Assembly: GCA_051362555.1 (NCBI GenBank)
Contig: CM120640.1
Coordinates: 13,702,001 to 13,766,000 of the forward strand
Direction of reading: 5' to 3'
Length of the DNA stretch: 64,000 nucleotides
DNA from: Lingula anatina
Lineage: Eukaryota; Animalia; Brachiopoda
Shown: positions 39,101 through 54,431 of the stretch, piece by piece
How the letters are laid out: each line of letters opens with the position of its first letter
Position numbering within the stretch: the first letter of the stretch is position 1
The notes under the pieces: generated by a model
What the model saw: the letters and a program-made list of their open reading frames with translations, nothing else
What the model was told of the DNA's origin: nothing
Database searches by the model: none
Made by a program: the position numbers and the translations under genes

Positions 39101-40450
39101 AAACATACATGTGTAAGGAGGTTTAAGGTTTGCTTTTAAAGGTAAAGGTTGATTCTATAGCCTTATATTAGTTCCCAGAAAAACAAGGTCAGCTATTTTC
39201 ACAGTTTTATGCCTGGTCTTAATGGATCTGGTCAATGTGTACTAACCTGTGTGGGGAGCACAAAAGACAACAGTGTAAATGTGGCAATTTTTGAATTGAT
39301 GTGTCTGGAAAGTAGCACTATGGCACTAATAAATATCAGCCACATTTATCACCACTAAAATATTTTTTAGATAGTGATGAAAAATAACACAAACTCTATC
39401 TTGAGAGTTAGTGCAATTGGTCGGATGTTGCAGGTTTAGAGTGCTGAAATCAATATTTTTCAAGATAGTATATTATTAAAAAAGAAGTGTATCCTTTTTT
39501 GCACCAAAGTGTTTAAAAGCACAGACATATCTGAAATGGACAATTGGTTGAAATGATATGGAATTACTTTTGTGATATAAAGATGCTTAACAATAATTTG
39601 CTAGAAGGACAATAGTCCATCTTTATATTAATTTTTTCTATCTCTTCTCCCCCATCAGACCCATTCTGCTGCAGTAAATTTTGCATTAATTATGAACTGC
39701 TGATTCATGGTCAATATCTTTAAAATAACTTGTATAATATCACCTTAAAAGGCCCTTTTTAAGGGTAAAGGATCATGCAATTATTATGTAGAAGGAAAAA
39801 AAATGAAATGCATCAGAAAAGCAGTCTTGCTTAATCAAACTTCTCTATGCATATAAAGGCGGCTTGTTGATTCAGCTTAAGGGGACAGTTCATGGAATTT
39901 GAAGGTTTTGGTAATTTTTATCATGCCACTTGTGGGGATATGTACTAGTTACGACACAAGTTGTCCACTGCGCCTCGCTAGAATTACGCTCTTGTATGTC
40001 GCATACAGTGGATGACAAGTAGTTGTAACAGACTTATACCAGGGTTGGCACCTTGAACAATGGGATGAGCGCACTTAAGTGTATGAAAATATAGGCAAGC
40101 CTGTTTGTGAAATATAAGTGCAATTATTGTTTGAAGCGCCAGCGTTGGTATAATTACTAGTACTTGTTATAGGAAGGTCTAAAGGATTTTAAGTCCAATG
40201 AACTGTCTCTTTGATAATTTTGCTTGTAGGTATGGACAACAGGACAGTACTGACCCAAGTAGAAAGAGGGTACCGGATGAAGAAACCACATAATGATGTA
40301 ATAGAAGTCCCAGACTCGCTTTACGAGATGATGTTGAAAACTTGGGCCAAGGAGCCAGAGAACAGGCCAACATTTGCATATTTATACAGTTTCTTTGATG
40401 ACTACTTTGTGGCCACAGAACCAGGATATAAGGAGACAGACAATTATTAA
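27121..40450 (+). CDS. Src-family non-receptor tyrosine kinase 1 (HRDLRAAN type), isoform with proximal last exon 10a, 520 aa
   Basis: Exons 27121-27295, 31138-31234, 33736-33840, 34662-34753, 35222-35380, 36938-37084, 37526-37782, 38053-38230, 38552-38683, 40230-40450. MGNC myristoylation/palmitoylation start; SH3 ALYDY..WW..GYIPSNY; SH2 FLVRSS..KHYR; kinase [30 protein letters not shown]; tail [19 protein letters not shown]. Confidence 0.93.
30656..30751. repeat. Compound (CT)n(TA)n microsatellite
   Basis: Direct reading. Confidence 0.9.
32625..32636 (+). CDS. Candidate 12-nt cassette microexon in the SH3 domain of Src-family kinase 1 (inserts RKER)
   Basis: tgctttacttaatacttttttcaacag|TAGAAAAGAACG|gttaga. 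Phase 2-2 symmetric; gives ...VIGDS-RKER-ENMDWW in frame. Confidence 0.55.
35588..36897. mobile_element. Non-autonomous DNA transposon (about 1.31 kb) in Src-1 intron 5
   Basis: Termini CAGTCTGCGAC...GGCACAGACTG form an imperfect TIR CAGTCTG(C/T)G. ATAATA flanks both ends (35582-35587 and 36898-36903; 6-bp TSD). Multiple subterminal CTAGCCCG/CGGGCTAG motifs at both ends; no transposase ORF. Internal 27-bp tandem duplication at 36392-36445. Confidence 0.75.
39022..39569. mobile_element. MITE-like element (about 550 bp) in Src-1 intron 9
   Basis: Inverted termini: gtaattccatatca-aaat-aaccaatt at about 39024-39049 versus aattggtt-gaaa-tgatatggaattac at about 39542-39567 (14-bp and 8-bp perfect blocks). 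No ORF; TSD not clear. Confidence 0.6.
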
Positions 40451-40881
40451 ATGAATTAGTAGGCTTGATATAAAGGCAAGGATATTCTTAGTGTCAGTTG
40501 AAATATTATGTGTTGCTTTGTGGTGGTAAAAGGATTGTAAAGCCTAGATTATAGAACTTGTGGGATCATTTAAAGTGTAAATAACAAGTAGCACAATTTT
40601 TGAATTCATTAAATACAGTAGATAATAAGAAATTAAATGTTTTAGCACAACCATGTAACAAATTGATATTTGCTTATTGCTTCAAAGTAGCTATGTGACT
40701 TTCATTTATTTTCATTATCTTTTATGGCTATATTTATGTTTTACTAACTAACCCTCAGGAATGTGTTTTCCGCAGTGGTTGCATTCTCCTTGCACTGCTT
40801 TTACTTGAGAATGTGAATAGTGGTGTAATTACAAAGAAGAATGTAGATAAAAGTTGCATAATACCTACATTTGTTTTTTAG

Positions 40882-41177
40882 GACTAAAAAATAAAGAGGT
40901 AATGAAACAAGTGCAGCTTGGGTACAGAATGCCCAAACCTACCTCTCCGGAGTTCACTGTACCGAATGCCTTGTACGACAAGATGCTGGAGTGCTGGAAG
41001 GCGGACCCTGAAGAAAGACCATCATTTCATGAGCTCTTTGCTTATTTCACAGACTATGCTATTGACATGGGGGAAAACGAAAATGGTGATGAGGAATACA
41101 GAGGTCCTGAGGATTTTGGACATGATTACGCTGAAACCCCGGAGGAGGAGGAGATAAATTTGGGGCTAACTTACTGA
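40882..41177 (+). CDS. Src-family kinase 1, alternative distal last exon 10b (545-aa isoform) with divergent acidic tail
   Basis: Acceptor ttgttttttag|GA is phase-compatible with the exon 9 donor (CCA G|gt). Reads GLKNKEVMKQVQLGYRMPKPTSPEFTVPNALYDKMLECWKADPEERPSFHELFAYFTDYAIDMGENENGDEEYRGPEDFGHDYAETPEEEEINLGLTY*. Open frame, clearly paralogous to exon 10a. Confidence 0.82.
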
Positions 41178-52100: not shown

Positions 52101-53660
52101 ATACCACTCCAGTGGCCATCAAAACCTTAAAAAAAGGCACCATGTCACCAGCTGCATTCCTTGAGGAGGCCCAGTTTATGAAGAAGCTGCGCCATGACAA
52201 GCTGGTTCAGCTTCTGGCCGTGTGCTCAGAGGAGGAACCCATATATATTGTGACAGAGCTGATGTCTAAAGGAGCCCTGCTGCAGTATCTGAGAGATGAT
52301 CATGGCACCACACTCAAATTACCACAGTTGGTGGACATGGCAGCCCAGGTGAGTTTATTTTGTTTCTTTGTCCAAGTAATATTTTATATCATAAAAGTCA
52401 TATTTGGCTTACTTTCTAAGTTCATTAGTGTTCAAGATAACTTAGTTATGGAATACATTGGTGCTGGCAATAATTATAACTGTTAAATAGCCAGTGACTC
52501 TATAATTGTAAATTTAGCCAGACTAATGTTAATAATTCCTAACACCAAGCCTGCGGTCAGTGGACACAGTTTCATCTTAGGTCCAGCAACCCCAAAAAAT
52601 CTTACAAGGGGGCAATCAGTTGCTTCTTATATGCATGCTTTGTAATGTATCTGTTGGTTCCAGATTGCCAGTGGCATGGCATATTTGGAGCGTGAGAAGT
52701 ACATCCACCGTGATCTGGCGGCCAGGAACATCTTGGTGGGAGACCAGAATGTGGTGAAGGTGGCTGACTTTGGACTGGCCAGGATTATTGAAGATGATGA
52801 GTACAATGCTAGACAAGGTAATGGCTAGCAATCTGAAATATAATTGGAGAATTTGAATGTTGGAGACCTATTTCAGTTATCACTCCAGTCATATATCACA
52901 AGAGGGTGGCAGTGTATGAAATAAACTCCCCAAAAACATAAAAAAGCGTATATTGCCAGTGTCATATAACATCTCTTTAGTTTGTATCTGAACCACTGCC
53001 ATATATATATCACAAAAACATTGCATATTCCTTATAAAGTTGTACAATGAAGTTATCCCTTTGCAGGCTCCAAATTCCCCATCAAGTGGACTGCCCCAGA
53101 AGCTGCCTTATATGGCAAATTTACCATCAAGTCTGACGTGTGGAGTTATGGTATATTGCTAGTGGAGCTTGTAACATATGGTCAGATCCCATATCCTGGT
53201 AAGTTCATCATTTTATCCTGCAATATAGCTTTTTTTTGCTTCAGATGTTGATTACATGATTGAAGTTTGATTTTCCCTCTGAATGTCCCTGGTGTTTTGA
53301 ATGCAGACATACATCATGAATATTTATGATGTGCTGTGCTTAAGATGTGTGGTCATTTTTTGTGGGGGTGGTTAAGTTTTTGAAAGTGTTCCCCTGACAG
53401 AGCAAGGTAAGGAGAGTGACCTACCTGTTTTGCTTTATCATCTCACTGCAGGCATGAACAATGCAGAAACCCTCCAGCAAGTGGAGAGGAACTACAGAAT
53501 GCCGTGCCCCAGCAACTGCCCAGAGTCCATGTATGAGAAGATGCTGGACTGCTGGAAGAAGACACCAGAGCAACGGCCAACTTTTGAGCACCTGTTCTAC
53601 TTCTTTGATGACTATTTTACATCAACAGAGCCTGGTTACAAAGAAACTGATGACTATTAG
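46180..53660 (+). CDS. Src-family tyrosine kinase 2 (HRDLAARN type, Src42A/Frk-like catalytic loop), isoform with proximal last exon 10a, 523 aa
   Basis: Exons 46180-46384, 48761-48857, 49416-49514, 49859-49959, 51240-51389, 51573-51737, 52089-52348, 52664-52817, 53067-53198, 53452-53660. MGC start; SH3 [19 protein letters not shown]2 FLIRES; linker ..[40 protein letters not shown]; tail [20 protein letters not shown] probable non-coding first exon ends at 44998 (ag|gtgagt). Confidence 0.94.
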
Positions 53661-54222
53661 TACATTGATACATTACATACAGGTGCTGATCGGATGTTCT
53701 CAAGTCCTGTGTTGTCCAGAGCTATAATGATTGTTGCTTTTGTTCTGCTTGCTATGTTTAGTCTTTGTAGGTTGCTGTATGCATTTTTTTCTTTTGATTC
53801 TATCTATGTTTCTAGGCTGGTGCTTGATGGTGTTTATTGGTCTTTTTTGCTTCATTTTATTGCTTTTAATAGGTATTTTAATAATCTAATCTGTTGTATT
53901 TGTAGCTGAACTGTGCTTGGATTTAACCCATGCTTAAAGATTCTGAGTGAAACAAAAATATTAATATGCTGCAGCTCATTATTTTATATGCAATGCTTCT
54001 AATTCTTTTGTAGAATATGTTTTGTGAAGTTAAATACTAAGAAATTATTTTAGCATTGATTCTTTATGTCAGTTATGTTTGCATATTTTTCACAAGTAAC
54101 TTGTATATACTGTTGCATGAGTATATCATGAAAAATCGAGTGTGATTGAGTAAGTTATATTATTACATGTTTATATGTACAACTGTATATATTATTAAAT
54201 TTTTTGGTATATATAATTATAG

Positions 54223-54431
54223 GTATGAGTAACCGAGATGTCCTAGATCAAATTGAGCGAGGCTACCGTATGCCCAAGCCACCAAAATGCCCAGACAGCC
54301 TGTATGAAACCATGCTGCTGTGCTGGAAATCTAATGAAGAGGAAAGACCTACATTTGAGTTCCTGCAGGGCCATTTTGATGACTTTTTCATCTCCACTGA
54401 GCCCAGCTACAAGGAAGCTGACAATGACTAG
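54223..54431 (+). CDS. Src-family kinase 2, alternative distal last exon 10b
   Basis: Acceptor ataattatag|GT. Reads [69 protein letters not shown]. Same length (209 nt) and phase as exon 10a. Confidence 0.85.

What the first reader, a model, noticed from the sequence alone, without database searches (positions are those of the whole stretch)
40230..54431. Both tandem Src-family kinases carry a duplicated, mutually exclusive last exon: a switchable kinase C-lobe/Csk-tail system
Seen: after exon 9 (..PYP G|gt), each gene has two intact, same-phase exons that each encode the end of the kinase C-lobe, the regulatory tail and a stop (Src-1: 40230-40450 and 40882-41177; Src-2: 53452-53660 and 54223-54431). 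Each has its own AG acceptor, and both cannot be translated in one mRNA. Established: this segment carries the Csk-phosphorylated inhibitory Tyr (c-Src Y527) that binds the SH2 domain. The well-known mutually exclusive exons of Fyn lie at the SH2-kinase linker, not the tail. Inference: two neighbouring genes make four tail variants by alternative 3' acceptor or last-exon choice, tuning autoinhibition by splicing. I do not know of this being described, but cannot check the literature.
Basis: partly seen in the sequence, partly recalled or inferred. Interest (0 to 1): 0.85.

Follow-up and report, generated by a model that had tools for sequence, protein, structure and literature searches.

The report
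Src kinases with swappable last exon
Two neighbouring Src-family kinase genes of the brachiopod Lingula each splice in or skip a stop-carrying duplicate of their last coding exon, giving alternative kinase ends; similar pairs occur in oysters, clams and other animals, and the swap likely alters how the off-switch kinase Csk recognises them.

Summary
All four exons are open and in phase 1, and the four proteins match Lingula anatina RefSeq isoforms, so databases already hold them. RNA reads show both junctions in both genes. It is a stop-carrying cassette spliced on to 10b, which then serves as 3'UTR, as in KRAS 4A/4B. Its stop lies 25 or 22 nt before the junction, inside the 50-55 nt window that avoids NMD. 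Src2 10a use ranges from 0/16 to 40/64 junction reads between samples (tissue, study and population confounded). Src1 uses 10a in 70/78. Src1 10b lacks the Csk tyrosine but diverges at a near-neutral rate (12 of 16 listed changes nonsynonymous), so it may be decaying. Both Src2 ends keep the tyrosine; they differ in helix aG and a Csk-docking residue. The same two-tail arrangement appears in five oyster species, clams and 7 of 79 metagenome loci. One origin or several is unresolved. Ten paper searches found no description; a sponge precedent (srk1/srk4) is recalled, not read. This scan had not noted it on other DNA.

The parts
27121..38683 (+). Src1, coding exons 1-9 (MG start, SH3, SH2, kinase up to PYP-G). 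Exons 27121-27295, 31138-31234, 33736-33840, 34662-34753, 35222-35380, 36938-37084, 37526-37782, 38053-38230, 38552-38683. Divergent paralog with a close relative in the bryozoan Bugula.
   Evidence: tree clade 100/100 with P0101, P0140, L064; the P0140 cluster holds a Bugula neritina protein
40230..40475 (+). Src1 exon 10a: cassette with CDS to the stop at 40450, then 25 nt of UTR and a GC donor at 40476. Minor GT donor after 40458. Major form; Y527-equivalent present.
40476..40881 (+). GC-AG intron joining Src1 10a to 10b
   Evidence: joint 40473>40880 with 3 ambiguous letters, read as AAG|GC..AG; 20, 10, 8, 25 reads
40882..43560 (+). Src1 exon 10b: terminal exon. CDS 40882-41177 is used only when 10a is skipped (8 of 78 junction reads). 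It ends in an acidic tail without Y527. The 3'UTR runs to about the AATAAA at 43533 (end approximate).
46180..53198 (+). Src2, coding exons 1-9. Exons 46180-46384, 48761-48857, 49416-49514, 49859-49959, 51240-51389, 51573-51737, 52089-52348, 52664-52817, 53067-53198.
53452..53682 (+). Src2 exon 10a: cassette with CDS to the stop at 53660, then 22 nt of UTR and a weak GT donor at 53683
   Evidence: joint 53682>54223 in 3, 1, 37, 0 reads; donor score 3.4 against 5.6-13.6 for 18 constitutive donors
54223..56750 (+). Src2 exon 10b: terminal exon. CDS 54223-54431 is used when 10a is skipped. The 3'UTR runs to about the AATAAA at 56721 (end approximate).

Best explanation
Each gene carries a tandem duplicate of its last coding exon; the upstream copy (10a) is a stop-carrying cassette exon that is either spliced in, turning 10b into 3'UTR, or skipped, so that 10b supplies the protein end, and the swap likely changes helix aG and the Csk-docking surface while usually keeping the inhibitory tyrosine. 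Shown: the three junctions per gene, stop-to-junction distances of 25 and 22 nt, sample-dependent ratios for Src2, and two-tail pairs in other animals. Inferred: that the short distance lets the 10a mRNA escape nonsense-mediated decay, that both proteins are made, and that they differ in substrate docking and Csk sensitivity. The Src2 pair is likely maintained by selection. Src1 10b would give a kinase that Csk cannot inhibit, but it is likely a leaky copy under relaxed constraint.
For: Junction counts for 9>10a, 10a>10b and 9>10b are 70/66/8 (Src1) and 45/41/65 (Src2). Src2 10a share is 40/64 in X7, 3/24 in X1, 0/16 in X3 and 2/6 in X4; X7 against X1+X3 gives p=1e-8. The 10a donors are weak or non-canonical (scores 5.5 for the GC donor and 3.4). 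Same-head, two-tail protein pairs occur in Mercenaria, in a Ruditapes RefSeq protein against an unnamed Logan protein (P0125/P0073), and in five oyster species. Seven of 79 metagenome loci have two tandem exon-10 copies. In the intronless contigs L020 and L071 the 10a stop is joined directly to 10b. In L005/L026 and L024/L049 a donor-like motif 38-48 nt after the stop is kept between relatives. The a copies and b copies form separate supported clades within clams and within the L005 group. The Csk-docking residues E510, Y511 and D518 (PMC10016382, passages) map as E-H-D (2a), E-F-D (2b), A-Y-D (1a) and H-E-D (1b). Src1 10b has 12 nonsynonymous changes among 16 listed, against 1 among 8 in 10a plus exons 6 and 8 (p=0.008; neutral expectation 0.77).
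Against: There are no protein, activity or tissue data. The Src2 ratio difference is confounded: X7 is from another study and half its reads are only 90-95% alike to the window. The substitution list is partial (40 of 206 rows shown). The Src2 tails barely differ at pY+1 to +3. Predicted donors after the 10a stops of five loci are only weakly better than 32 controls (p=0.048 by ranks; no difference at score thresholds 5-7). The 50-55 nt rule is stated for mammals (PMC1854916, passages) and was not tested in brachiopods. Src1 10b still has an open frame, its one listed indel is 6 nt (in a GAG run), and its helices are modelled at pLDDT 82-96, which does not fit complete decay.
Confidence: 0.65

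Rival explanations
1. A true on/off autoinhibition switch: skipping 10a is a regulated way to make a Csk-resistant, v-Src-like kinase (Src1-10b), and the fast change in 10b reflects a disordered acidic tail or positive selection.
For: Src1 10b lacks Y527, E510 and Y511, whereas Y527 is present in 83 of 83 background tails. The frame is intact in both sequence types. The junction is seen in X7 and X8. L071 10b also lacks E510 and has its tyrosine shifted by two residues. v-Src without the tail is constitutively active (PMC3492796, passages).
Against: Only 8 of 78 junction reads, and none in X1 or X3. Of the 12 nonsynonymous changes, 5 lie in the folded part (first 40 residues). Divergence density equals that of the UTR (5.4 against 4.8 per 100 nt). 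The other two-tail pairs mostly keep Y527 in both copies.
Confidence: 0.15
2. Neutral, repeated accident: the last exon duplicates easily, the first copy survives if a cryptic donor lies near its stop, and the two ends are functionally equivalent.
For: C-terminal substitutions are the over-represented class of duplicated exons and often arise convergently (PMC9741552, passages). The oyster tails are still 78-79% identical. Src1 10a and 10b share a 4-residue insertion typical of the Src1 paralog, which suggests a separate duplication. Src1 10b looks unconstrained.
Against: Both copies are kept with distinct sequences across five oyster species, several clams and four related loci. The Src2 ratio varies strongly between samples.
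Confidence: 0.15
3. Mutually exclusive last exons with separate poly(A) sites.
For: X7 shows low read depth in the Src2 10a-10b intron, as does X8 in the Src1 one. ATTAAA occurs at 40608, 40632 and 54194.
Against: 10a>10b junction reads nearly equal 9>10a reads in both genes. No AATAAA lies between the exons.
Confidence: 0.04

Closest known systems
Human KRAS exons 4A/4B (PMC5945503, passages read)
   Same: The upstream exon carries the stop and is included or skipped. The downstream exon is in both mRNAs and is translated only on skipping; the paper says they are not mutually exclusive at mRNA level.
   Different: KRAS swaps its short C-terminal end (membrane-targeting role recalled). Here 68-97 residues of the kinase C-lobe and the Csk-regulated tail are swapped.
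Tandem duplicated exon substitutions, C-terminal class (PMC9741552, passages read)
   Same: Homologous duplicated exons give isoforms identical except for one region; 77 of 236 human events are C-terminal; convergence is common.
   Different: The passages seen name only FYN among Src kinases. Its supplementary tables were not examined.
FynT/FynB duplicated exon (PMC9741552, passage read)
   Same: Src-family kinase diversified by a tandem duplicated exon, with tissue-specific use.
   Different: The Fyn exons are internal, mutually exclusive, and cover the SH2-kinase linker and the start of the kinase domain, not the C-lobe end and tail.
Sponge srk1/srk4 (Ottilie et al. 1992, PMID 1378585; only the citation seen; content recalled)
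   Same: Recalled as a Src-related gene whose two tandem C-terminal parts are alternatively spliced. If so, it is a direct precedent.
   Different: Not readable here. The splice point, the stop-cassette mechanism and orthology were not checked.
v-Src and SRMS (PMC3492796 passages; PMC10220380 start of abstract in a listing)
   Same: Src-type kinases without the inhibitory C-terminal tyrosine, like the predicted Src1-10b product.
   Different: Viral truncation or a separate gene, not a splice choice.

Membership tests
Src-family kinase | MG start, SH3-SH2-tyrosine kinase order | tested here: met
   Pfam SH3_1, SH2 and PK_Tyr_Ser-Thr above cut-off in all four isoforms; both begin Met-Gly
Src-family kinase | C-terminal tyrosine in the Y527 register | tested here: met
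   Met for Src1-10a, Src2-10a and Src2-10b; gapless match to solved Fyn through the tyrosine
Src-family kinase (Src1-10b isoform) | C-terminal tyrosine in the Y527 register | tested here: not met
   Glu at 527; tyrosines at 533, 543 and 558
Src-family kinase | Inhibition by Csk phosphorylation | not testable with these tools
   Needs an assay; only the docking residues were mapped
Tandem duplicated exon substitution (C-terminal) | Two adjacent homologous exons in one gene | tested here: met
   41% (Src1) and 59% (Src2) amino-acid identity, same phase, no second exon 9 between them
Tandem duplicated exon substitution (C-terminal) | Both spliced to the same upstream exon in RNA | tested here: met
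Tandem duplicated exon substitution (C-terminal) | Both protein forms are made | not testable with these tools
   No proteomics; the RefSeq models are automatic
Mutually exclusive exons (strict) | Never both in one mRNA | tested here: not met
   10a>10b junctions in 66 and 41 reads
Alternative last exon with own poly(A) site | Upstream exon ends in its own cleavage site | tested here: not met
   Junction balance and no AATAAA between the exons; a minor route is not excluded
KRAS4A/4B-type stop cassette | Included exon holds the stop; the next exon becomes UTR | tested here: met
Regulated (tissue-specific) splicing | Ratio differs between tissues or stages of one genotype | tested here: inconclusive
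   The ratio differs between runs, but tissue labels are not shown and X7 is a more divergent sequence type

The most novel reading that the evidence does not exclude
Src kinases of brachiopods, bivalves and other probably spiralian animals share an old, or repeatedly re-evolved, splice switch that swaps the whole Csk-recognition module (helix aG to tail) by a stop cassette held within the NMD-safe distance. Tissues would thereby choose a more or less Csk-sensitive Src, and in Lingula Src1 a natural v-Src-like form.
Probability: 0.25. Interest if true: 0.78.

Novelty: new member of a known kind. Interest (0 to 1): 0.52.

Why it matters
Csk control of Src is treated as a fixed feature of the gene. 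Here the exon that holds the three known Csk-docking residues and the inhibitory tyrosine exists in two selectable versions, in several animal lineages that include farmed oysters and clams. The pairs are natural matched variants for testing what in the Src C-lobe sets Csk sensitivity and substrate docking. They also allow a test of whether the 50-nt NMD rule shapes exon duplication outside vertebrates: the four distances seen in RNA or transcript-like contigs are 0, 0, 22 and 25 nt. The splicing device itself is known and the Lingula proteins are already annotated automatically, which limits the surprise.

Tried and rejected
No whole genome is held for the window, so other Src genes of this animal were not examined. 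No indexed RNA holder was listed; raw reads with the same species label were laid instead, 5 of 9 runs, at 6-26% of each run. Assembly artefact or haplotype duplication was rejected: the copies are about 67% alike in DNA at best, no flanking similarity was found, and both are joined in reads. L013 has two exon-10 hits but is a duplicated whole kinase region and was dropped from the count. Trees of exon 10 (67 columns) do not resolve relations between lineages; AU tests rejected none of eight groupings (p 0.12-0.37), and the ninth (Src1b+Src2b) had support 20/0. AlphaFold models leave the tail below pLDDT 50 in both Src1 isoforms, so they say nothing on tail-SH2 docking. The donor-motif test is weak. 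Only one tail was seen among listed members for Mytilus, scallops, Potamilus, Sinanodonta, Littorina, Patella and spiders, and Bugula-like Src1 loci L064 and L066 show one exon 10 with 4.7-6.0 kb downstream. These are partial lists, not proof of absence. The sponge paper and the Csk-Src structure paper could not be read. Ten literature searches gave no paper on this arrangement in Lingula or molluscs; subscription journals and supplements were not covered. A search of this scan's notes by sequence found nothing.
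Full report
Observation. I rebuilt both genes from splice signals. Each has nine upstream coding exons ending in PYP-G with a phase-1 donor (38683, 53198), followed by two exons that complete the Gly codon and run open to a stop. Pairwise identity of the four translated exons is 41-63%. 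A search with Src2 exon 6 hit a Lingula anatina RefSeq protein at 100%. The cluster look-ups show both ends annotated for both genes (XP_013406848/851 and XP_013406797/798). My models equal these proteins except for one residue. All four have SH3, SH2 and kinase domains above Pfam cut-offs.

RNA evidence. Raw reads from five runs with the same species label were laid on the 3' halves. For Src2 (X1, X4, X7, X3), 9>10a was crossed by 3, 2, 40 and 0 reads and 9>10b by 21, 4, 24 and 16. For Src1 (X7, X1, X3, X8), 9>10a was crossed by 22, 12, 7 and 29 reads, 9>10b by 3, 0, 0 and 5, and 10a>10b by 20, 10, 8 and 25 through a GC-AG intron (40476-40881), plus 3 reads from a minor donor. Reads entering and leaving 10a balance (70 against 66; 45 against 41). 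So 10a is a cassette exon with a stop, and 10b is the common terminal exon. The stops lie 25 and 22 nt before the junction. In mammals, stops within 50-55 nt of the last junction are not seen by NMD (PMC1854916, passages); that this applies here is inferred. Both 10a donors score at or below the weakest of 18 constitutive donors, as expected of an optional exon. KRAS 4A/4B works the same way (PMC5945503, passages).

Is it regulated? The Src2 10a share is 0.62 in X7 and 0.00-0.12 in X1 and X3 (p=1e-8). Tissue labels are not given, and X7 and X8 belong to another study and carry many fixed differences from the window. The cause may be tissue, stage or population. Src1 is 85-100% 10a in all four runs (no significant difference between studies, p=0.19).

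What changes in the protein. The exon encodes helices aG, aH and aI and the tail (helix names from general knowledge; model helices 451-459, 476-485 and 496-513). Numbering is counted back from c-Src Y527, with a gapless register to Fyn. Lee et al., as summarised in PMC10016382 (passages), found E510, Y511 and D518 essential for Csk recognition and the six residues around the tyrosine dispensable. The four exons give A-Y-D, H-E-D, E-H-D and E-F-D for 1a, 1b, 2a and 2b. Y527 is present in all but 1b. His at 511 occurs in 0 of 83 background tails but in Src2 10a, in the a copies of four loci and in one b copy. Leu or Met at 477 occurs in 7 of 9 b copies, 0 of 9 a copies and 0 of 83 background tails (the rows are related, so these are leads). 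Src2 10a also differs from 10b at two aG positions (Ala/Gln against Arg/Asp). The likelier effect in Src2 is therefore on docking surfaces rather than on tail-SH2 binding. This is inference.

Src1 10b. It would encode a kinase with an acidic tail and no Csk site. In the X7/X8 sequence type it has 16 listed differences in 296 nt, 12 of them nonsynonymous, matching the neutral expectation of 0.77. Exon 10a plus exons 6 and 8 have 1 nonsynonymous change among 8 (p=0.008). Its divergence density is that of the adjacent UTR. The list shows 40 of 206 rows, so this is provisional. The frame is still open and the one listed indel is 6 nt. I read it as a copy under relaxed constraint that serves mostly as UTR.

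Other animals. Same-head, two-tail proteins occur in Mercenaria (X1/X2 against X3/X4), in Ruditapes (RefSeq P0125 against unnamed P0073), and in Magallana gigas, M. angulata, Crassostrea virginica, Ostrea edulis and Saccostrea cucullata. Of 79 metagenome loci (the best 80 of 101 matches), seven have two tandem exon-10 copies. Four are genomic with exon 9 upstream (L005, L024, L026, L049; 4 of the 23 loci that span this intron). One is genomic without exon 9 in the contig (L027). Two are intronless contigs in which the first stop, TAG, is joined directly to the second copy (L020, L071). Donor-like motifs 38-48 nt after the first stop are kept between related loci, but the statistical test is weak. 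L020 falls among clams. L005, L024, L026, L049 and L071 are unplaced within the broad Src clade. Only one tail was seen for mussels, scallops, freshwater mussels, gastropods and spiders, in partial lists.

Origin. Within clams and within the L005 group the a and b copies form separate supported clades, and the two oyster types do too, so each pair predates those radiations. Between lineages the 67-column tree is unresolved and no AU test rejects a shared origin. Src1 is a divergent paralog also found in Bugula. Its two exons share a 4-residue insertion with that paralog group, and Bugula-like loci show one copy, which favours a separate duplication in Src1, or conversion between the copies.

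Comparison with what is known. This is a C-terminal tandem duplicated exon substitution, a class with 77 human cases (PMC9741552, passages). The Fyn pair lies elsewhere in the protein. I recall that sponge srk1 and srk4 are splice forms with tandem C-terminal parts; only the citation was seen and the paper was not held. Ten searches found no paper on the Lingula or mollusc cases; subscription journals and supplements were not covered. An unreviewed note of this scan describes a similar duplicated last exon in octopod pyruvate kinase; I did not test it.

Verdict. The splicing device is known, the proteins are annotated, and the functional claim is untested. Interest 0.52; new member of a known kind.

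Noticed in passing
window 52832-53425: Spliced reads on the opposite strand (CT..AC ends, 4 reads from 2 starts, stranded run X1) cross Src2 exon 9: a possible antisense transcript next to the alternative exon.
   Followed up: no
window 39967-40016: A short intronic element in Src1 intron 9 collects reads with loose ends in all four runs, probably a repeat transcribed elsewhere.
   Followed up: no
window 39273-39319 and 43093-43137: A 47-nt direct copy at 87% identity in Src1 intron 9 and its 3'UTR.
   Followed up: no
window 27121-41177: Src1 has the catalytic loop HRDLRAAN and an acidic insertion in the activation loop, while Src2 has HRDLAARN. Src1 belongs to a divergent paralog group that includes a Bugula protein.
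   Followed up: partly
runs X7, X8 on window 36900-57000: These runs, labelled as the same species, differ from the window at about 5% of UTR positions with near-fixed differences: a distinct population or cryptic species.
   Followed up: partly
window 940-10337, minus strand: Exons of a neurotransmitter-gated ion channel subunit (Pfam Neur_chan_memb on 2217-2576).
   Followed up: partly
window 58704-62276, minus strand: Glucokinase regulatory protein-like gene (Pfam GKRP-like_C on 58704-59141), tail to tail with Src2.
   Followed up: partly
window 16349-17020 (+) and 19429-20555 (-): A Thr/Ser-rich open frame ending in a hydrophobic stretch, and exons recalled as HD-domain (MESH1-like); neither piece scanned matched Pfam.
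   Followed up: partly
L013:2087-6267: Two successive kinase regions in one locus, the first with a divergent end lacking the usual tail.
   Followed up: no
L008:3765-3968: A clam-like exon 10 of the a type whose TAG stop is followed directly by GT; the contig ends 65 nt later, so a second copy may follow.
   Followed up: partly
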